Source of the DNA: an uncultured Gammaproteobacteria bacterium
GTDB lineage: Bacteria > Patescibacteriota > Patescibacteriia > S139-126
Direction of reading: 5' to 3'
Length of the DNA: 64,000 nucleotides
Assembly: GCA_964620905.1 (NCBI GenBank)
Contig: CAZUKA010000002.1
Location: 121,154 to 185,153 of the forward strand
The position numbers and the translations under genes were made by a program. Shown here piece by piece: positions 4,892 to 48,046 of this stretch (position 1 is its first letter; every line of letters begins with the position of its first letter). The notes under the pieces are model-generated. The model ran no database searches. It was not told the origin of the DNA and was given only the letters and a program-made list of their open reading frames with translations.

Positions 4892-6949
4892 CTATTCGGG
4901 ATGAATAAATGTATATTTATTGGTAAATTCTTTTTTAAGCAAAGGATATAGGTCAAGATTGGGTGAGGTGGTTATTATTTTTTGAGCTGCTTCTCTGGCA
5001 TTTTTTATTGTTTCCCAATCGTTAAGATCAGCAATCTTTAAATTCCAAAAACCTGATTGTTTGGTGCCATATAGTTCTCCACCGCCTCGATTTTTTAGGT
5101 CATATTCGGCTAGTTTTATGCCATCATCATAAAGAGTCATAGCTTGCAGGCGATGTAAGGTATTTTTGTTTTGATTGTCAGTAAAAAGTAGACAATAGGA
5201 TTGAATGTTCGATCGACCGACTCTACCTCTAAATTGATGTAATTGTGCCAAGCCAAATCTATCGGCCCCCTCGATTATTATTAAGTTGGCATTGGGAACA
5301 TCAACGCCAACTTCTATCACTGATGTGGATACCAAAATATCAATTTTTTTATTTTTAAAGTCAGTCATAATTTTTTCCTTGACAGCTGATTTTAATTTGC
5401 CGTGCAGTAAACCAATTCTAAATTGGGGAAATATTTTGGTAGTCAATTTTTCGTATTCTTGAGTGGCTGCTTTGACACCTAAACGATCTGATTCATCAAT
5501 TAGTGGGCAAATGACAAAAGCTTGTCCGCCGGCTTGGATTTTGTTGGCAATAAATTGATAGGCCTGAATACGGTTTTGTTCAGCAACAATTTTTGTGATT
5601 ATTTTTTTTCTACCCAGTGGTTTTTCACGAATAATTGAAATATCCAAATCACCATAGATAGTAAGAGCTAAGGTTCTAGGAATTGGCGTGGCGGTCATTG
5701 AGAGAAAATGGGGAATAGTATTTTTTGTTTTGTCTTTTAGTTTTTTTCTTTGTTCAACACCAAAGCGATGTTGTTCATCAACAATAATTAGGCCAATATC
5801 AGTATAAGCAACTTTTTCTTGCAATAAAGCGTGAGTGCCGATAATTATATCCACTTTTCCTTGAGACAAAAATTTTTTTAGTTCGGATTTTTTTATATTT
5901 GAGTCATTTATTTTTTGATGTGTTCTAGTGAACAGACAAATATTTAGTTTGAATTTTTTCAGAGTATTTTGAAAAGTGTGGTAGTGTTGTTGGGCTAGAA
6001 TTTCAGTTGGTGTCAAAACTATGGACTGTAATTTATGTATGGCACAATTTAAACAGGCAATAGCTGCTACAACTGTTTTTCCAGAACCTACATCACCTTG
6101 CAACAATCGATTCATGGGTTGAGTAGCACTGATATTTTTCAATATTTCCCAAGCTGATTTTTTTTGGTCTACGGTCAAAGTAAATGGCAATGATTTTACT
6201 AAATCCCTAGTTTCTTCTTGATGGAAAGGGATAGTTGGGGCTGTTTGTTTGGCTAGTAATTGTTTATTTTTTTCCTTTTGTAATGAAATAAAAAAGAGTT
6301 CATCAAATTGCAGTCTTTTGGTAGCCAGTAAAAATTCGTTTTTCGTTTTTGGCCAATGAATATTGTATAAGGCTTGATTGAGGGAGGGTAATTGGTATTT
6401 ATTGGTAATTATATTTGGTAAATAATCTTGGTAGTTGTTTAAAAGCGGAGTAATAATTTTTATCAGTTGACGTAGTTGTTTTTGACTTATACCTTGGGTG
6501 GTTGGGTAAATTGGAATAATTCTGCCAGTATGAATGTGCTGTTCAGTTTTTTCCCACAGAGGATTGGTAAATTGTAGAGTATGATAGTCATCATCTACTC
6601 GGCCAGAAATATATATTTCCTCACCTCGATTTAAGTATTTATGTAAATAAGGTTGATTGAACCAAATAGTTTTGATAGAACCTGTCTCATCGCTAATCAA
6701 ACATTCAGTTAGGTGCAAACGTCTGTGTCTAGCTCGGCGACTGGAAATAAGTTCTATTTTACCTTTCACAGTAGCAGTTTCATTTATTTTCAAATCAGCA
6801 ATAGGCTTGAGGTTAGAAAAATCTTCAAAACGATAAGGAAAATGCCAAAGTAAATCTTGGGCATAGATTAGACCAATTTTTTTTAGTTTATTGGCAGTCG
6901 CTTTTCCAACTTTTGGTAAGTCAGAAAGTTTGGTATTTAGAGTTAGCAT
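4892..6949 (-). CDS. recG: ATP-dependent DNA helicase RecG
   Basis: Wedge/OB N-terminal region. Helicase motifs GDVGSGKT, DEQHRFGV, TATPIPRT and QxxGRVGR. Confidence 0.9.
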   Translation of the reverse strand: MLTLNTKLSDLPKVGKATANKLKKIGLIYAQDLLWHFPYRFEDFSNLKPIADLKINETATVKGKIELISSRRARHRRLHLTECLISDETGSIKTIWFNQPYLHKYLNRGEEIYISGRVDDDYHTLQFTNPLWEKTEQHIHTGRIIPIYPTTQGISQKQLRQLIKIITPLLNNYQDYLPNIITNKYQLPSLNQALYNIHWPKTKNEFLLATKRLQFDELFFISLQKEKNKQLLAKQTAPTIPFHQEETRDLVKSLPFTLTVDQKKSAWEILKNISATQPMNRLLQGDVGSGKTVVAAIACLNCAIHKLQSIVLTPTEILAQQHYHTFQNTLKKFKLNICLFTRTHQKINDSNIKKSELKKFLSQGKVDIIIGTHALLQEKVAYTDIGLIIVDEQHRFGVEQRKKLKDKTKNTIPHFLSMTATPIPRTLALTIYGDLDISIIREKPLGRKKIITKIVAEQNRIQAYQFIANKIQAGGQAFVICPLIDESDRLGVKAATQEYEKLTTKIFPQFRIGLLHGKLKSAVKEKIMTDFKNKKIDILVSTSVIEVGVDVPNANLIIIEGADRFGLAQLHQFRGRVGRSNIQSYCLLFTDNQNKNTLHRLQAMTLYDDGIKLAEYDLKNRGGGELYGTKQSGFWNLKIADLNDWETIKNAREAAQKIITTSPNLDLYPLLKKEFTNKYTFIHPE

Positions 6950-7175
6950 GAATTAATTATAACTAAATAAAAATAAATAAAAAACAGCCCTCCGCTGTAT
7001 AATTATCAATTATTAATAACCAGTTACTAGTCAATTATTTAATTTATTAATTAACTAATTAGAAAATTCATTAGATATTAGTTATTAGTAATTGGTTTTA
7101 TTTATTATTTATTCTAGTTTCAATATTCTAAGTTTAATTATGGTGCCCCCGATAGGATTCTCATCCAGTCATTTT

Positions 7176-7250
7176 TGGTGCTCTCAGTAGGAATCGAACC
7201 TACATTACGAGATCCGCAATCTCGCGTTCTATCCGTTGAACTATGAGAGC
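7176..7250 (-). tRNA. tRNA-Arg (anticodon read as GCG)
   Basis: A 75-nt cloverleaf on the minus strand: acceptor GCUCUCA/UGAGAGC, D-stem GUUC/GAAC, anticodon stem CGAGA/UCUCG with loop UUGCGGA, T-arm GUAGG-UUCGAUU-CCUAC, then ACCA. Confidence 0.75.
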
Positions 7251-7261
7251 CTCAATTAATG

Positions 7262-7341
7262 ACGGGACGGGCCTACATTACGAGATCCCTGCCTACCGCA
7301 GATAAAACCATCTCGCGTTCTATCCGTTGAACTACAGGGGC
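7262..7341 (-). other. tRNA-like 5' partial copy carrying a 23-nt insertion, immediately upstream of tRNA-Arg
   Basis: The D-arm, anticodon stem and variable region are identical to tRNA-Arg, but the acceptor 5' strand is different (GCCCCUG). A 23-nt hairpin-forming insert (GGUUUUAUCUGCGGUAGGCAGGG) replaces the anticodon loop. No T-arm or 3' acceptor strand follows. Confidence 0.4.
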
Positions 7342-7410
7342 AAAAATTATCAAAAATAAAAGCTCAAAGTGAGCTTTTAAATATTAACAGAAGCAATAGT
7401 AAGTTTCAAG

Positions 7411-7914
7411 TTATATTTTCAACTTGCGGCTAATATTCTCTGAAATCGGTTCGCTTTCGCGCTCGATGTCTTCGTCAATATATTCCAATAAAGTATTTCT
7501 AATCTCAACTGGATTTTGGTCTTGCAAAGGAATAGGCAGTCTAGGAAGAAGCAGACTTTTGAATTCCAAATATAAATTTTTAACTTCCGGCGGCTGATAA
7601 TTTATCCAAAAATTTTTTAACTCCGGCCATTCGTAAAGCATTTGGTTTAGTATCACACCTTCTTCAGTAATACGGAAACGAATATTTTCCGGTTCTCTTT
7701 GACGGTTAATATAAATAATGACCGTGGCGATAATTAAAATGAAAATAAATAAAATATTGCTGGTGGCCACACCATAGATGATAAGAAGCGTTAGAACCAC
7801 ACTATAACCAATCAGCCAGGAACGACTGTAATGGTGTTTGATAAATTCAGGAAATTGCCAAGCTGCTAGTTCTTTACCCACTTCGTGTTCTTCTTTTGAT
7901 AAGTCTTTTGGCAT
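7411..7914 (-). CDS. membrane protein (2 TM), hypothetical
   Basis: 167-aa ORF with two hydrophobic helices and an acidic C-terminus. Host-like composition. Confidence 0.5.
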   Translation of the reverse strand: MPKDLSKEEHEVGKELAAWQFPEFIKHHYSRSWLIGYSVVLTLLIIYGVATSNILFIFILIIATVIIYINRQREPENIRFRITEEGVILNQMLYEWPELKNFWINYQPPEVKNLYLEFKSLLLPRLPIPLQDQNPVEIRNTLLEYIDEDIERESEPISENISRKLKI

Positions 7915-8039
7915 ATATCTGGATTATACAAGATTTTTATCAGTTTGACAATTATAAACAGTTAGTTATAATATAGACAAAGAAGATATTTTAGTGTGCT
8001 GTGGTGAGTTAAAAACTTACCTTAGCACATTAACAAAAC

Positions 8040-8180
8040 CGCCATTCTAATTTGTGCGGTTTTTTGTTTATCTTGTCCTTCTAGTACTGTTGTTTTTTGA
8101 CAATAGTACTAGGAGGGCACAGGCAGACAAACTGCCGCAGGCACTTAGGGTTGGTCACCTAAGCTGTGAGTTCTCCTCAT
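8040..8180 (+). ncRNA. candidate structured RNA or 5' leader (GC-rich, multi-hairpin)
   Basis: GC-rich island inside a 480-nt ORF-free AT-rich gap. A 16-bp stem lies at 8085-8117 (ccttctagtactgttg / caatagtactaggagg). Nested helices AGGAG/CUCCU and CACAG/CUGUG enclose two hairpins, GGCAGACAAACUGCC and CUUAGG-N8-CCUAAG. I could not assign a family. Confidence 0.35.
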
Positions 8181-8188
8181 AATAATTA

Positions 8189-8371
8189 ATGTGTAAATTT
8201 ATGTACACAGCAATTAGAGGAGCTCTAACCTTAGCTTTGACTATTCTGGTGCTCCAGATTTTTTTGCCCGAAGTGGCTAGTGGACTAATCGCTCTAGTAG
8301 CGAGAATGCTAGAAATCGCTTTGGCGATTCTCTCCCAAGTCCCAACCTCTTTGGCGCAATAATAAATTTAA
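8189..8371 (+). CDS. small hydrophobic peptide (about 56-60 aa, 2 predicted TM)
   Basis: ATG at 8189 or 8201 gives MYTAIRGALTLALTILVLQIFLPEVASGLIALVARMLEIALAILSQVPTSLAQ, with the stop followed directly by the terminator hairpin. Too short for the ORF track. Confidence 0.35.
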
Positions 8372-8403
8372 GCTTCTGATTAATTCAGAAGCTTATTTTT
8401 TTT
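8370..8403 (+). terminator. rho-independent terminator
   Basis: aagcttctga-ttaat-tcagaagctt followed by a 9-nt T-run. Confidence 0.6.
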
Positions 8404-8713
8404 CGTAAAATATTAGAATCAAAGAAACAATCCCAATAATCACTCCTAGTATTTGATATTTATTTAAATTTTCTTTGTACAACCAAAGTCCAATAATAGC
8501 TGCTAAAATAGCACTAGCTACAGAAAAGATAATTGCTCCACGAGCTAAACCACTGCCTGATTTTAAAGCCCAAAGCCAAAAAGCATTGGCAGCTACATAA
8601 CCTAAAATAGCACCAATCCATCTGATCTTACCACCGTGCAGTGAATATTCCTTGGCAATAATATCTGCTATTGATTCAAATAGGATAAGTAAAATTAGTC
8701 CAATAACCCACAT
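8393..8713 (-). CDS. SMR/DMT-superfamily-like small 4-TM membrane protein
   Basis: About 106 aa from Met at 8713, four TM helices, a conserved Glu in TM1 (LFESIAD), similar in size to EmrE. The track ORF extends to 8785 through an upstream Met that is probably not used. Confidence 0.45.
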   Translation of the reverse strand: MWVIGLILLILFESIADIIAKEYSLHGGKIRWIGAILGYVAANAFWLWALKSGSGLARGAIIFSVASAILAAIIGLWLYKENLNKYQILGVIIGIVSLILIFYEKK

Positions 8714-10406
8714 TCTTTTTATTAATAATATAATTATAATATAATTGACAGTAATAATAAATCTCACTACAATATTTAAGTACAATTAAATATATGGAGA
8801 GGTGGCCGAGTGGCTGAAGGCGGCAGGTTGCTAACCTGTTATAGGAGTTTAAATCCCTATCGAGGGTTCGAATCCCTCCCTCTCCGCCAGATTGGCAACT
8901 TTGAACCTTAGTCACGGCAAGGGTTTTTGAGCCCTTGCCACCGACTTTTGGGGGTTCGAAATTGCTAGAGTTTAAGTCCATAAGAACATCAAAGACTGGC
9001 GTCCATATCGGCGTCAGTTTTTGATTTTGCACCGTGAAGCCCTCAAAGCACAGCTTCACCAGTGTTCGCTTCTGATGCATACCACTGGTCTGGAATACTT
9101 TGTCGGCGTGTTCCGTGAAGTCGAGTATCTCGTTAAACTTTTGCACGAATTTGTCCGACTTACCCTCAAGAATCGACAAGCGTTCCTGATACATCTCTTT
9201 CTCCTTTAAAAGCTCGTCCTGAATCTTTATAAACACATCTGCGTCTATGATGCGTTTTGAGCGATCCACAACGATGTTACGGATCTGTTGTTGCACCCTT
9301 ACCAACTCCTGCTTGAGAGTCCTTCGTTCCTTTTCTTCCTGACCCATTCGCTCTTTGGCGAAGTGCTGGAAGTAAGCATCCAAGACCTTCTTAAATCGAT
9401 CCGGCAACTGCACCCTAGAGAGATGCATTGCGACCTGTTCCTCAACCGTCTCCCATCGTATGTATTTACGCTCTGAACAAGCCTTGTCGTTCCAATGGGT
9501 GCATGCGTAGTAGAGATGACCCTTTTGCGTCTGTCCACAGAGCGTAGAACCGCAGACGGCACATCGCATAAAACCGGCCATCGGATAGGAGTGCTTGCGA
9601 CTGCGATCAGCAGAGTGATTGTGTTGTTGGATGATCTCTTGAACGTCATCAAATACCTTTTTAGTAATCAAAGATGGAAAGTTTGCCTGACATGTTGCTG
9701 AACGGGTTTTAACAAGACCATAGTAGATCGGGTTTGCGAGAATGTGTTCGATCGACGTCCGTCTCACTAAATTGCCGTACTTACTTTTGAAACCACGCTT
9801 GGCAAGTTCGGCCGCAAGCGAATCGTAGCTGTACTTTCCAGTCGCGTAGAACTCGAAGGCCATCTTTATAAATGGTGCTCGTAGATTGTCGACAATGAGC
9901 GATTTTGTTTTCTTGTCGTTTAAGTAGCCAGTCGGTGCGTATCCAGGGAACCGGCCACGCTCTACGGCCTCCTTGAGACCCTTCTTGACCTCCCAGCTGA
10001 TGTTCTGGGACGTCCATTGAGCAATTGAGGACATGATGTTCTCGACCAACTCTCCGGAGAAAGACTCATCAAATTGCTCGACCACCGAGATCAGACGAAC
10101 GTCATGCTTTTTGAGCATCATCTTGATGGCCGCATAGTCGGCAACGTTGCGACACATACGGTCCAACTTGTGCATTAAGATAACGTCGACCTTGGCATCG
10201 GTCTTTGCTCGGTGAAGCATTTTTTGAAGCTGTGGACGTTCGACCGTTCGAGCCGATTCGCCCTTCTCCTCGTAGATGCCATCCTGTGCAAGATTCCAGT
10301 GGTGATCCATGCCGTACTTCTGACATGCTTTCACCTGTGCTGGAATACTCAGTTCTCGTTCGGCCTGACGAGAGGTAGAGACACGGCCGTAGATTAAATA
10401 ATTCAT
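8676..10406 (-). CDS. large serine recombinase (phage integrase)
   Basis: N-terminal resolvase catalytic domain (YGRVSTSRQ), recombinase domain, zinc ribbon (CAVCGSTLCG...YYAC), coiled-coil. The ORF has no stop before attL. Its last ~70 codons are the antisense of tRNA-Ser, so the phage-encoded part ends near 8890. Confidence 0.85.
   Translation of the reverse strand: MNYLIYGRVSTSRQAERELSIPAQVKACQKYGMDHHWNLAQDGIYEEKGESARTVERPQLQKMLHRAKTDAKVDVILMHKLDRMCRNVADYAAIKMMLKKHDVRLISVVEQFDESFSGELVENIMSSIAQWTSQNISWEVKKGLKEAVERGRFPGYAPTGYLNDKKTKSLIVDNLRAPFIKMAFEFYATGKYSYDSLAAELAKRGFKSKYGNLVRRTSIEHILANPIYYGLVKTRSATCQANFPSLITKKVFDDVQEIIQQHNHSADRSRKHSYPMAGFMRCAVCGSTLCGQTQKGHLYYACTHWNDKACSERKYIRWETVEEQVAMHLSRVQLPDRFKKVLDAYFQHFAKERMGQEEKERRTLKQELVRVQQQIRNIVVDRSKRIIDADVFIKIQDELLKEKEMYQERLSILEGKSDKFVQKFNEILDFTEHADKVFQTSGMHQKRTLVKLCFEGFTVQNQKLTPIWTPVFDVLMDLNSSNFEPPKVGGKGSKTLAVTKVQSCQSGGEGGIRTLDRDLNSYNRLATCRLQPLGHLSIYLIVLKYCSEIYYYCQLYYNYIINKKNVGYWTNFTYPI
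8796..8889 (+). tRNA. tRNA-Ser (anticodon GCU)
   Basis: Acceptor GGAGAGG/CCUCUCC, anticodon stem GCAGG/CCUGU with loop UUGCUAA, long variable arm, T-arm GAGGG-UUCGAAU-CCCUC, discriminator G plus CCA. Its 3' end is the attachment-site core. Confidence 0.85.
8871..8899 (+). repeat. attL direct repeat (tRNA-Ser 3' end)
   Basis: aatccctccctctccgccagatt(G)gcaac matches 47985-48013 with one mismatch. Confidence 0.8.
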
Positions 10407-38074: not shown

Positions 38075-39376
38075 ATGTTCAACTCCTACCAATTCAACAG
38101 CGCAAGACTCAACGACACCGGCTCTTCAGCCGTGAGCAAGGCAATGAGCTACGTGCTCGACGTGTTCGGATTGATATCAAAGCCGGTCACGTATGTCTTC
38201 GATCAAGCGATAACAGTGGAAGCCATACGAACGTACCTGCTCGACATCAAAAATCTTGCTGGAAAAGTAGGAACGTATCTCATGGACGTGTACGCTCTCG
38301 CCGAAAAAGCTCTGACGTATGTCTTCGACATGCGAAGCCTTATCGACAAAACATCCACCTACCTCTGGGACGGACTGCAACTCATCACAAAGCAAATCAC
38401 ATATCTGATCGACATCATCGGCGGTGCTGTGATGACGATGACTTACAAGCTCGATGTACGGCAACTGGCAACAAAGAGTACGACATACCTGCATGACATC
38501 CTACTCACGATCGGACAGACGATAACTTACGTGTTCGACTCATTCCTGTCGGCCGCGCGAGAGACAACGTACCGGATGGATATAAGAAATCTTGCGACAA
38601 AGCTCACAACTTACCTGATCAATATCGGGGATGTGGTCGCAAAGATCATGACGTACAGATTCGACATGCGAAATCTAGCAAGCCACGCAACCACGTACCT
38701 ACTCGATCTTCGAAGCCTGATAAGCAAAACATGGACGTATGTGCTGGATGTAAGAAACCTTGCGACCAAGAGCATACAGTACCTGTTCGACATGGCCGGT
38801 GCTGTCAGCAAAAGCACTGAGTACGTGTTTGACGTGCTGATGAGTGCAATAAAACAGACGACCTATCTCTTCGACATGAGAAGCCTTGCAGAAAAAGCAT
38901 CAACATATCTTCTCGACATTCGAGGACTCATTGCAAAGATGATGACGTACATATGGGATATCCGGATGCTCGCATCGAGAGTGACGAGTTACCTGTGGGA
39001 CATCAAAAGCTTCGTGTCCAAGTCGATCACATACACATTCGACATCCTAAGTTATATCGCCAAAGTCTGGACGTACCAATTCGACATCCTGATTGGAGTC
39101 GGCAAGGTGTGGACGTATCTTCTCGACATTCGAGGACTGGTATCGAGGACGTGGAAGTACGTGTGGGACATCCTGAAAATTCCACCCGGTGTAAAGATCG
39201 CCATTGAATTCCTCTCGGCAAAAATATCCGTGCTCATGCTTTCCGCAAAAGAAACGCTGGGACTTACCACTGCCAAGAACAACATTGAGGTCAAAACTGC
39301 CCGAGCAGATCAACAGCTTCAGAATGCAAAAGCTGACGTGACGCTTCCGAGCAATAAGCAAAACATAAACTTATGA
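38075..39376 (+). CDS. tandem 14-aa repeat protein (TY-x-x-D-[IM]-R-x-L-A-x-K-x-x), likely fibrous virion protein
   Basis: More than 20 consecutive 14-residue repeats, e.g. TYLLDIRGLIAKMM, TYIWDIRMLASRVT, SYLWDIKSFVSKSI, TYTFDILSYIAKVW. Confidence 0.55.
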   Translation: MFNSYQFNSARLNDTGSSAVSKAMSYVLDVFGLISKPVTYVFDQAITVEAIRTYLLDIKNLAGKVGTYLMDVYALAEKALTYVFDMRSLIDKTSTYLWDGLQLITKQITYLIDIIGGAVMTMTYKLDVRQLATKSTTYLHDILLTIGQTITYVFDSFLSAARETTYRMDIRNLATKLTTYLINIGDVVAKIMTYRFDMRNLASHATTYLLDLRSLISKTWTYVLDVRNLATKSIQYLFDMAGAVSKSTEYVFDVLMSAIKQTTYLFDMRSLAEKASTYLLDIRGLIAKMMTYIWDIRMLASRVTSYLWDIKSFVSKSITYTFDILSYIAKVWTYQFDILIGVGKVWTYLLDIRGLVSRTWKYVWDILKIPPGVKIAIEFLSAKISVLMLSAKETLGLTTAKNNIEVKTARADQQLQNAKADVTLPSNKQNINL

Positions 39377-47984: not shown

Positions 47985-48013
47985 AATCCCTCCCTCTCCG
48001 CCAGATTAGCAAC
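47985..48013 (+). repeat. attR direct repeat (copy of the tRNA-Ser 3' end)
   Basis: aatccctccctctccgccagatt(A)gcaac. GC-rich phage DNA lies to the left and AT-rich host DNA to the right. Confidence 0.8.
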
Positions 48014-48046
48014 CTTTATTTCATTAAAGGTTTTAATTTTACCGTT

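What the first reader, a model, noticed from the sequence alone, without database searches (positions are those of the whole stretch)
7141..7345. tRNA-Arg locus with tRNA-like fragments on both sides
The intact tRNA-Arg sits at 7176-7250 on the minus strand. Immediately 5' of it lies an 80-nt copy sharing its D-arm, anticodon stem and variable region exactly. That copy has a different acceptor strand (GCCCCUG) and a 23-nt hairpin-forming insertion where the anticodon loop should be. Immediately 3' lies a 35-nt CCA-terminated fragment (7141-7175) whose CGGGGGC-A-CCA end is perfectly complementary to that alternate acceptor strand. Two readings fit. One is remnants of a second tRNA-Arg gene disrupted by past site-specific integration or excision, making the locus a recombination hotspot. 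The other is a split, permuted or intron-containing tRNA arrangement.
Basis: seen in the sequence. Interest (0 to 1): 0.55.

Follow-up and report, generated by a model that had tools for sequence, protein, structure and literature searches.

The report
Broken tRNA-Arg gene bracketing its replacement
A working arginine tRNA gene sits inside the T-loop of a second, broken arginine tRNA gene of a different allele, which records one tRNA allele replacing another in a tiny-genome bacterium and is not a split or spliced tRNA.

Summary
On the minus strand, 7341->7141 reads as an outer tRNA-Arg-like gene ("A") with two disruptions. Its anticodon loop is replaced by 23 nt. Its T-loop is replaced by 115 nt holding an intact tRNA-Arg(GCG) ("B", 7176-7250) between two mutually complementary flanks.

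Two further assemblies carry the arrangement. One is identical. The other is about 5% diverged.

The outer copy is not a split, permuted or intron-bearing tRNA.
- Only B scores as a tRNA.
- There is no BHB motif and no group I intron.
- The outer copy has no usable anticodon loop or T-loop.
- Its acceptor has shrunk in the diverged strain.

Related Paceibacter-like genomes explain the fragments. Two tRNA-Arg(GCG) alleles occupy this syntenic site.
- A-type (GUCCCCG/CGGGGGC) stands alone in L072 and in an outer clade.
- B-type (GCUCUCA/UGAGAGC) stands alone in the sister species.
- L063 shows the mirror image: a 21-nt B fragment next to an intact A-type gene.

So the fragments are the remains of an A-type gene disrupted when B-bearing DNA entered it. 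Site-specific integration is not shown, and how the insertion happened is unresolved.

The finding is of moderate interest. A 39-kb prophage in the neighbouring tRNA-Ser is a separate finding.

The parts
7335..7341 (-). 5' acceptor strand of the outer, disrupted A-type tRNA-Arg copy (GCCCCUG).
   Evidence: Sequence. It pairs 7/7 (one U.G) with 7145-7151. It is the same type as the intact alleles GUCCCCG of L072 and L063.
7310..7334 (-). Outer copy: positions 8-32 (D arm and 5' anticodon stem), 25 nt identical to the inner tRNA.
   Evidence: (family D6). The D-loop C/T difference between the window and L053 is present in both the outer and the inner copy of each genome.
7287..7309 (-). 23 nt (GGUUUUAUCUGCGGUAGGCAGGG) standing where the five loop bases UGCGG should be. 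This destroys the outer copy's anticodon loop.
   Evidence: unique in the window. 9 of 23 positions differ in L053, with no consistently kept helix. ARAGORN rejects the outer copy unless this stretch is repaired.
7272..7286 (-). Outer copy: 3' anticodon stem, variable region and 5' T-stem strand (AUCUCG UAAU GUAGG), 15 nt identical to the inner tRNA.
   Evidence: It carries GUAGG as in B, where intact A-type alleles have AUAGG.
7251..7271 (-). 21-nt 5' flank of the inner tRNA (CCCGUCCCGUCAUUAAUUGAG). It forms the 5' arm of the bracket helix that replaces the outer T-loop.
   Evidence: unique in the window. It is identical in L053 and complementary to 7157-7175.
7176..7250 (-). Intact B-type tRNA-Arg(GCG) with encoded CCA. 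This is the functional gene.
   Evidence: ARAGORN. Rfam 70.3 bits. It is identical to the single tRNA-Arg of L002 and L025 and differs by 1 nt from that of L001.
7157..7175 (-). 19-nt 3' flank of the inner tRNA (AAAAUGACUGGAUGAGAAU). It forms the 3' arm of the bracket helix.
   Evidence: It is identical in L053.
7141..7156 (-). 3' end of the outer A-type copy: T-stem 3' strand, acceptor 3' strand, discriminator and CCA (CCUAU CGGGGGC A CCA).
   Evidence: All 16 nt are identical to the 3' ends of the intact A-type tRNAs of L063 and L072.
7357..7409 (-). Context: a promoter-like site (TTGAAA-17-TAATAT, 7409->7381) and a terminator-like hairpin (7379->7357) upstream of the composite.
   Evidence: Both are kept in all relatives upstream of their single tRNA-Arg. 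The outer and inner copies are therefore presumably transcribed as one precursor (inference).
6984..6998 (-). Context: terminator-like hairpin downstream of the composite, before recG.

Best explanation
The locus holds one working gene and the wreck of another. The working gene is the B-type tRNA-Arg(GCG) at 7176-7250. The sequences on either side of it are the two halves of an A-type tRNA-Arg(GCG) gene. A-type is the allele with acceptor GYCCCYG/CGGGGGC that stands intact at this same site in related lineages.

The A-type gene was split in its T-loop by a 115-nt piece of DNA. That piece carried the B-type gene with a 21-nt 5' flank and a 19-nt 3' flank. The A-type anticodon loop is also destroyed, by a 23-nt replacement.

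B took over decoding. The A halves are a pseudogene that is decaying, and its interior has probably been homogenised against B by gene conversion.

The whole unit is presumably transcribed as one precursor. B would then be released by the ordinary 5' (RNase P) and 3' end-processing. The A halves would be left as by-products that can pair with each other.

Shown: the anatomy, the allelic identity of the pieces, the restriction to one narrow lineage, the signs of decay, and a mirror-image event in L063. Inferred: the direction of the event (B into A), co-transcription, and gene conversion. Not resolved: the enzymology of the insertion. The candidates are illegitimate or homology-facilitated recombination with imported DNA, or a decayed integrative element.
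For: 1. Only the inner gene is a tRNA by ARAGORN and by the Rfam covariance model, even at E<=10. The outer copy is called a tRNA only when both disruptions are repaired in silico.
2. Sister species (recG 79-81% identical: L001, L002, L025; also L054-56 and L062) have the same synteny, orf167 - hairpin - tRNA - recG, with a single clean B-type tRNA.
3. A-type alleles exist intact at the same site. L072 has GUCCCCG...CGAGA...AUAGG UUCGAUU CCUAU CGGGGGC ACCA. L063 has one too. The outer copy's 3' 16 nt are identical to theirs. An outer clade of six contigs carries the related GUCCCCG/CGGGGAC form: L064, L065, L067, L068, L070 and L073.
4. L063 is 98% identical to the clean-B L054 in orf167. It shows the reciprocal event: a 21-nt 5' fragment of B, then 20 nt, then an intact A-type gene.
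5. Decay. Between the window and L053 the outer 5' part plus spacer differs by 12.6%. This compares with 1.3% for B, 4.2% for the recG-side intergenic spacer (7.6% for the longer intergenic stretch at 7915-8795) and 5.1% for recG. In L053 the outer acceptor has lost G1 and one C/G, leaving 5 pairs.
6. Gene conversion. The D-loop C/T variant is shared by the outer and inner copy within each genome. The outer 5' T-stem strand is B-like GUAGG, which pairs by G.U with an A-type CCUAU.
7. The arrangement is real. It is seen in three assemblies and two sequence variants.
Against: - The ends of the outer copy sit where the resident tRNA's ends sit in relatives. On the orf167 tree the nearest relatives are all B-type. 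'A was resident, B came in' therefore needs either an A-type ancestor for this lineage or an earlier clean replacement. The order of events is not proven.
- The two flanks of the inserted piece are significantly complementary (p about 0.004) and unchanged between the two strains. A random patch does not predict that.
- No donor for the flanks was found in the viral contigs or in the window.
- The outer 3' fragment is still identical to intact alleles over 16 nt, so the relic is either young or constrained.
- Only two diverged examples exist, so tests of selection have little power.
Confidence: 0.75

Rival explanations
1. Scar of site-specific integration. On this view a tRNA-targeting integrative element, using a tyrosine or serine recombinase, integrated into the T-loop of the resident tRNA-Arg. 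A second may have integrated into the anticodon loop. The element brought its own tRNA-Arg and later decayed to almost nothing. This agrees with the best explanation on what the pieces are. It differs on how the insertion happened.
For: - Both disruptions of the outer copy lie in the anticodon loop and the T-loop. These are the two sublocations that tRNA-targeting integrases classically use (own knowledge: Williams 2002; the general model is in PMC4383910, seen).
- The neighbouring tRNA-Ser carries a bona fide integrated prophage.
- The spacer downstream of this tRNA-Arg is rearranged in several relatives: L062, L067, and a CCA-ended scrap in L002 and L025.
Against: - No integrase and no island remnant is present. 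Only 21 and 19 nt flank B.
- The fragments are not direct repeats of the intact gene's ends. The outer and inner 3' ends match at 15 of 22 positions, counted by hand from the sequence. Compare 30 of 32 for the true att repeat at tRNA-Ser.
- The element did not regenerate the target, as such elements normally do (PMC4383910).
- The junction in L063 is in the D-loop, not at a shared site.
- In both lineages the insert is only 115-127 nt.
Confidence: 0.15
2. A functional nested or split tRNA-like RNA. On this view RNase P and 3' processing cut the inner tRNA out of the precursor. The two outer halves then stay paired through the acceptor, the T-stem and the bracket helix. They would act as a two-piece, CCA-ended tRNA-like molecule, or as a processing scaffold for the inner tRNA.
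For: - The nested cloverleaf is the minimum-free-energy and centroid fold, with z = -4.6.
- The halves cofold at -47.1 kcal/mol.
- The bracket helix is significantly complementary and unchanged between two strains about 5% apart.
- The T-stem change in L053 is G-C to G.U, which keeps the pair.
Against: - The arrangement is absent from all sister species, which manage with the bare tRNA.
- The outer copy has no 7-nt anticodon loop with U33 and no T-loop.
- The anticodon-region insert is the fastest-changing part, and neither candidate hairpin survives in both strains.
- The acceptor shrinks from 7 to 5 pairs and loses G1 in L053.
- There is no BHB motif and no group I intron.
- Zero changes in 40 nt of bracket helix is not significant at 5% divergence.
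Confidence: 0.06
3. In-situ nested duplication of the resident B gene. On this view compensatory divergence of the outer acceptor stem followed, for example to keep the outer strands from competing with the inner acceptor.
For: - The outer and inner copies share 40 nt exactly.
- All 8 differences in the acceptor and T-stem are transitions, with three fully compensated pairs.
Against: - The outer acceptor and 3' end match a pre-existing natural allele (L072, L063) exactly over 16 nt. No in-situ evolution is therefore needed.
- Giving the outer copy B-type acceptor strands in silico does not disturb folding of the inner acceptor. The proposed selective pressure finds no support.
Confidence: 0.03
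4. Assembly artefact: a chimera of two strain variants of the tRNA-Arg gene.
For: The locus contains 25-nt and 15-nt exact repeats that could confuse a de Bruijn assembler.
Against: - Three assemblies from at least two samples and three pipelines agree.
- One of them carries 14 substitutions or indels within the same architecture.
- The junction sequences are unique and mutually complementary.
Confidence: 0.01

Closest known systems
Displaced tRNA-gene fragments at the ends of genomic islands and prophages (integrase-mediated integration into tDNA; Islander model, PMC4383910)
   Same: A partial tRNA sequence lies next to an intact tRNA gene. The breakpoints are in the anticodon loop and T-loop. 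The locus behaves as a hotspot. A textbook case sits 1.6 kb away at tRNA-Ser in this same window.
   Different: No island and no integrase lie between the pieces. Both a 5' and a 3' fragment are present, and they bracket the intact gene. The fragments belong to a different allele and are not a direct repeat of the intact gene. The target was not regenerated but replaced by a complete second gene.
Archaeal and algal split, permuted and multi-intron tRNA genes (BHB-dependent; PMC4033280, PMC3218864, PMC3978253)
   Same: The tRNA coding sequence is interrupted at non-canonical positions. The two halves could pair through their acceptor stem and through an extra helix at the break.
   Different: This is a bacterial genome. 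There is no bulge-helix-bulge motif. The joined product would lack an anticodon loop and a T-loop. The arrangement is not conserved beyond two strains. The 'intervening sequence' is itself the functional tRNA.
Group I introns in Patescibacteria tRNA genes (PMC13011429)
   Same: Same phylum. A tRNA gene is interrupted in the anticodon loop and is missed by standard tRNA finders.
   Different: Those introns average 257 nt, are self-splicing ribozymes and leave a functional tRNA. Here the anticodon insert is 23 nt, has no group I hit and varies between strains.
Homology-facilitated illegitimate recombination and patch insertion of foreign DNA during natural transformation (own knowledge: de Vries & Wackernagel 2002)
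   Same: Short foreign segments are joined at non-homologous points inside or next to a homologous gene, leaving a truncated resident copy. The L063 event, with one junction in the D-loop and homology resuming downstream, fits this pattern.
   Different: The process has not been demonstrated in Patescibacteria. The event in the window is a pure insertion with both junctions in the T-loop. No donor was identified.
Intervening sequences in bacterial 23S rRNA removed without religation (own knowledge)
   Same: An extended helix replaces a terminal loop. If it were cleaved, the RNA would survive as paired pieces. That is what the outer halves would look like after the inner tRNA is removed.
   Different: Fragmented rRNA stays functional. 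Here the host molecule has lost its functional loops, and no processing data exist.

Membership tests
Functional tRNA (outer copy) | Recognised by tRNA covariance or heuristic models | tested here: not met
   Rfam tRNA at E<=10 and ARAGORN find only the inner gene. ARAGORN accepts the outer copy only after both inserts are repaired by hand.
Functional tRNA (outer copy) | 7-nt anticodon loop with U33, and a T-loop with the conserved U54-U55-C56 | tested here: not met
   The loop is replaced by 23 nt (7287-7309). The T-loop is replaced by 115 nt. The residual UGAGAAU has G55 and A56.
Split / permuted / BHB-intron tRNA | Bulge-helix-bulge (3-4-3) motif at each exon-intron junction | tested here: not met
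   The MFE and centroid folds of the window and of L053 show continuous helices with 1-nt bulges at the T-loop junction. No 3-nt/4-bp/3-nt motif appears at either disruption.
Split / permuted / BHB-intron tRNA | Joined exons give a canonical tRNA | tested here: not met
   Removing the inner tRNA, with or without the bracket helix, does not yield a tRNA at default thresholds.
Split / permuted / BHB-intron tRNA | Architecture conserved among related genomes | tested here: not met
   It is present only in the window, L052 and L053. It is absent at the syntenic site from the other related contigs examined.
Split / permuted / BHB-intron tRNA | Splicing endonuclease and RNA ligase encoded by the genome | not testable with these tools
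   Only 64 kb of the genome is available.
Group I intron-containing tRNA | Group I ribozyme core inside the anticodon loop | tested here: not met
   No Intron_gpI hit at the gathering threshold over the window, or at E<=10 over 7000-7500. The insert is 23 nt, against an average of 257 nt in PMC13011429.
Integrase-generated att scar at a tRNA gene | The displaced fragment is a near-exact direct repeat of the corresponding part of the regenerated tRNA | tested here: not met
   The outer 3' end matches the inner 3' end at 15 of 22 positions, counted by hand from the sequence. The acceptor strands differ at 3-4 of 7 positions. In contrast the tRNA-Ser att repeat matches at 30 of 32 (family D8).
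Integrase-generated att scar at a tRNA gene | Integrase gene or island between the regenerated gene and the fragment | tested here: not met
   Only 21 nt and 19 nt separate the pieces.
Integrase-generated att scar at a tRNA gene | Breakpoints at the anticodon loop or T-loop | tested here: met
   Both disruptions of the outer copy are at these loops. The related event in L063 is in the D-loop.
tRNA pseudogene left by allele replacement | An intact counterpart of the fragment's allele occupies the same locus in relatives | tested here: met
   L072 has a clean A-type gene and L063 an intact one. The 16-nt 3' end is identical and the acceptor is of the same type.
tRNA pseudogene left by allele replacement | A second, intact gene with the same anticodon is present to carry the function | tested here: met
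   The inner B-type tRNA-Arg(GCG) scores 70.3 bits.
tRNA pseudogene left by allele replacement | Relaxed constraint on the fragment | tested here: inconclusive
   Divergence is 12.6% against 4.2-7.6% in the intergenic stretches and 5.1% in recG, and the acceptor is truncated in L053. However, there are only two sequences, the changes are clustered, and the bracket helix and 3' end are unchanged.

The most novel reading that the evidence does not exclude
The inserts might be a small, self-propagating 'tRNA cassette'. This would be a complete tRNA-Arg gene with roughly 20-nt flanks that invades the homologous resident tRNA gene. It would break the resident gene while supplying its substitute, so it could not be lost. 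That would be an addictive allele-replacement element.

Three points stop the evidence from excluding this.
- Two independent lineages carry minimal inserts of 115 and 127 nt, each consisting of just a tRNA-Arg gene plus short flanks, inside the resident tRNA-Arg gene.
- The two 5' flanks match at 12 of 19 positions (shuffle p about 0.007).
- The flanks in the window form a significant helix.

Alternatively, the paired outer halves could be a functional two-piece tRNA-like RNA.
Probability: 0.07. Interest if true: 0.75.

Novelty: new variant of a known kind. Interest (0 to 1): 0.35.

Why it matters
- It is a clear natural example of one essential tRNA allele being swapped for another by DNA insertion. 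The swap is caught in both directions in sister lineages of Patescibacteria, a phylum with minimal genomes.
- It shows that tRNA genes in these organisms are exchanged between lineages, and that the acceptor-stem type is not simply inherited vertically.
- It warns annotators that half-tRNA fragments around a tRNA in these genomes are relics, not split genes.
- It gives a natural test substrate for bacterial pre-tRNA processing: a tRNA embedded in a tRNA-like scaffold.
- It does not reveal a new RNA class or a new splicing system.

Tried and rejected
1. Split, permuted or intron-bearing tRNA. Rejected; see the membership tests.
2. Group I intron remnant. There is no Rfam signal.
3. In-situ duplication with 'orthogonalising' selection on the acceptor. 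Swapping B-type strands into the outer copy does not change the predicted pairing of the inner acceptor. A natural A-type allele explains the sequence.
4. Link to the adjacent prophage. Its att core is the tRNA-Ser 3' end. No tRNA-Arg-like or flank-like sequence occurs elsewhere in the window at up to 3 mismatches.
5. Search for a phage or element donor. These gave only unrelated tRNA-Arg(CCU) genes or chance 17-mers.
6. Two metagenome-contig scans found nothing. This negative is weak. L053 is a JGI metagenome contig that contains the first pattern, and it was not returned.
7. Target-site duplication of the T-arm at the insertion. Similarity of the junction sequences to the T-arm is 8-11 of 17 and not significant.
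8. A shared mobile-cassette family for the window and L063 inserts. The leaders match at 12 of 19 (p about 0.007). The trailers are unrelated, and the L063 flanks do not pair. This is kept only as a lead.

Full report
**What is there**

Read on the minus strand from 7341 to 7141, the locus has the following parts in order:

- An acceptor strand GCCCCUG.
- UA, a D arm, G, and an anticodon-stem strand CGAGA. The 25 nt at 7334->7310 are identical to the inner tRNA.
- 23 nt (7309->7287) in place of the loop bases UGCGG.
- The other anticodon-stem strand, the variable region UAAU and the T-stem strand GUAGG. These 15 nt are again identical to the inner tRNA.
- A 21-nt spacer CCCGUCCCGUCAUUAAUUGAG (7271->7251).
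- A complete tRNA-Arg(GCG) with encoded CCA (7250->7176).
- 19 nt, AAAAUGACUGGAUGAGAAU (7175->7157).
- CCUAU-CGGGGGC-A-CCA (7156->7141).

ARAGORN and Rfam recognise only the inner gene, which scores 70.3 bits. This holds even in an E<=10 scan of 7000-7500.

The outer acceptor strands pair 7/7 and the outer T-stem strands 5/5, each with one G.U. The two spacers pair with each other: -14.6 kcal/mol against -6.0 +/- 2.3 for shuffles, p about 0.004. The 205 nt therefore folds as a cloverleaf inside the T-loop of a second cloverleaf, at -77.9 kcal/mol, z = -4.6.

The nesting and the bracket helix go beyond it.

**It is real**

The protein next door (orf167, 7411-7914) is encoded on a Logan contig, L052 (SRR10807626). 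That contig is 100% identical to the window over 4.4 kb, including the whole arrangement.

A JGI contig from another sample, L053 (3300009868), has an orf167 that is 98% identical. It carries the same architecture with differences.

**Host and neighbourhood**

The window is from a Patescibacteria genome close to Candidatus Paceibacter. Its recG (4892-6949) is 81% identical to that of DYGA01000001.

The order orf167 - terminator-like hairpin - tRNA-Arg - AT-rich spacer - recG is kept in all relatives retrieved.

**Comparative evidence**

Sister species have a single clean tRNA-Arg(GCG) at this site. These are L001, L002 and L025 (recG 79-81% identical) and L054-56 and L062. Their tRNA is identical or nearly identical to the inner gene, with acceptor GCUCUCA/UGAGAGC, and has no flanking fragments. 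I call this allele B-type.

The origin of the outer copy became clear from more distant contigs.

- L072 has, at the same site, a clean tRNA-Arg(GCG): GUCCCCG-UA-GUUC..GAAC-G-CGAGA-UUGCGGA-UCUCG-UAAU-AUAGG-UUCGAUU-CCUAU-CGGGGGC-ACCA. I call this allele A-type.
- Six contigs of an outer clade carry the related GUCCCCG/CGGGGAC form: L064, L065, L067, L068, L070 and L073.
- L063 has an orf167 98% identical to that of the clean-B L054. It carries a 21-nt 5' fragment of the B-type gene (GCUCUUAUAGUUCAACGGAUA), then 20 nt, then an intact A-type gene.

The last 16 nt of the outer copy in the window are identical to the 3' ends of the L072 and L063 genes. The acceptor is of the same type (alignment A1).

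The outer copy is therefore a broken A-type gene and the inner one is a B-type gene. L063 records the replacement in the opposite direction.

On a neighbour-joining tree of orf167 rooted with distant homologues, A-type acceptors occur in the outer clade and in L072. B-type occurs in the remaining inner lineages. The two relic-bearing lineages lie in different sub-clades. Allele type thus does not follow the tree. The relics show how alleles are exchanged.

**Is the outer copy functional?**

It has neither an anticodon loop nor a T-loop.

Between the window and L053, divergence is as follows:

| Region | Divergence |
|---|---|
| recG | 5.1% |
| recG-side intergenic spacer (6950-7140) | 4.2% |
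| inner tRNA | 1.3% |
| outer 5' part plus spacer | 12.6% |

The last figure comes mostly from the 23-nt insert, which differs at 9 of 23 positions. Neither candidate hairpin in the insert is kept in both strains.

In L053 the outer acceptor has lost G1, one C and one G, leaving five pairs. These are signs of decay.

Two features point to gene conversion of the outer interior by the inner gene.
- The D-loop C/T variant is shared by the outer and inner copies within each genome.
- The outer 5' T-stem strand is B-like GUAGG, although it faces an A-type CCUAU.

There is no bulge-helix-bulge motif and no group I intron signal. Group I introns are the known kind of tRNA interruption in this phylum (PMC13011429).

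**Mechanism**

The best-supported account is this.
- A 115-nt segment carrying the B-type gene entered the T-loop of an A-type gene.
- B now supplies tRNA-Arg(GCG).
- The A halves are a pseudogene.

Because the only promoter-like site lies upstream of the composite, the unit is probably transcribed as one precursor. B would then be released by ordinary end-processing. This last step is inference.

How the DNA got in is unresolved. Against a classical integrase event:
- There is no island and no integrase.
- The fragments are not repeats of the intact gene's ends.
- The target was not regenerated.
- The L063 junction is in the D-loop.

For an integrase event:
- The two breaks are at the loops that such integrases classically use.
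- The spacer downstream of this tRNA is rearranged in several relatives (L062, L067).

The L063 event has one non-homologous junction, with homology resuming downstream. That resembles homology-facilitated illegitimate recombination with imported DNA (own knowledge).

Two observations remain unexplained.
- The inserted flanks are significantly complementary.
- The inserts in the two lineages are both minimal (115 and 127 nt), and their 5' flanks match at 12 of 19 positions, p about 0.007.

These leave a small chance of a dedicated tRNA cassette.

**Caveats**

- The direction 'B into A' rests on the outer ends occupying the resident position. The nearest relatives on the tree are B-type, so an earlier step is needed, or an A-type ancestor.
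- Only two diverged copies of the nested form exist.
- The negative metagenome scans are uninformative, because they missed L053.

**Verdict**

- The 'remnants of a second tRNA-Arg gene / hotspot' reading is supported in substance.
- The split, permuted or intron reading is rejected.
- The structure is an unusual variant of a known phenomenon, tRNA-gene relics left by recombination. It is of moderate interest.

Noticed in passing
window 8871-48016: A prophage of about 39.1 kb is integrated into the 3' end of tRNA-Ser(GCT) (8796-8889, +). Its GC content is 0.42-0.52 against 0.33-0.37 for the host. The att repeats are 8871-8902 and 47985-48016, matching at 30 of 32 positions (family D8). It encodes a large terminase subunit, a major head protein, a tail fibre protein, an endolysin-like peptidase, an S24/HTH repressor and a large serine recombinase. 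L053 (about 95% identical strain) and L001 have the empty site. Temperate phages of Patescibacteria are little documented.
   Followed up: partly
window 8676-10406 (-): The serine recombinase ORF runs across attL. In the reconstructed excised (circular) form it ends at the att core and is 504 aa long. In the integrated form it reads on through the antisense of tRNA-Ser and host DNA, giving 576 aa. Integration therefore changes the enzyme's C-terminus, which could be a switch that depends on integration state.
   Followed up: partly
window 38314-39176, within ORF 38075-39376 (+): There is a degenerate repeat with a 42-nt (14-codon) period, 60-78% identical between copies, inside a 433-aa prophage ORF that has no PHROG match. 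It lies next to the tail fibre gene.
   Followed up: no
L063 2036-2150 (JGI 3300013137 Ga0172375_10108691): This is the mirror image of the finding. A 21-nt 5' fragment of the B-type tRNA-Arg is followed by 20 nt and then an intact A-type tRNA-Arg(GCG). By my hand comparison with the trailer of L054 (sequences), this replaces about 80 nt of the arrangement seen in L054, whose orf167 is 98% identical.
   Followed up: yes
L062 704-1109 (Logan SRR11582161): Directly after the CCA of tRNA-Arg the sequence switches to GC-rich DNA with a 91-aa ORF. This differs from L001, whose orf167 is 98% identical. It is probably another insertion at this tRNA's 3' end. The contig ends before it can be characterised.
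   Followed up: no
L067 2200-2990 (GCA_054046425.1): The tRNA-Arg-to-recG spacer is expanded to 993 nt. It is filled with repeated units resembling GTCATTCCGAC...GGGATGACA, which look like MITEs.
   Followed up: no
L002 and L025 3811-3830: A CCA-ended scrap (AGCTTATCTTCCCACCA) lies immediately after the tRNA-Arg, at the position of the outer 3' fragment in the window. It is flanked by a CACCAAG repeat. It could be a decayed A-type 3' end or a small duplication. The evidence does not decide.
   Followed up: partly
window 7357-7409 (-), and the same site in all relatives: The promoter-like -35 box TTGAAA directly follows the orf167 stop codon (TAACTTGAAA). It lies upstream of the terminator-like hairpin that precedes the tRNA. 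Both are conserved across the clade. How the tRNA is transcribed through this hairpin is unclear.
   Followed up: no
Metagenome-contig collection: The tandem D-arm pattern should match L053, a JGI metagenome contig, but the scan returned nothing. Negatives from that collection are therefore not evidence of absence.
   Followed up: yes
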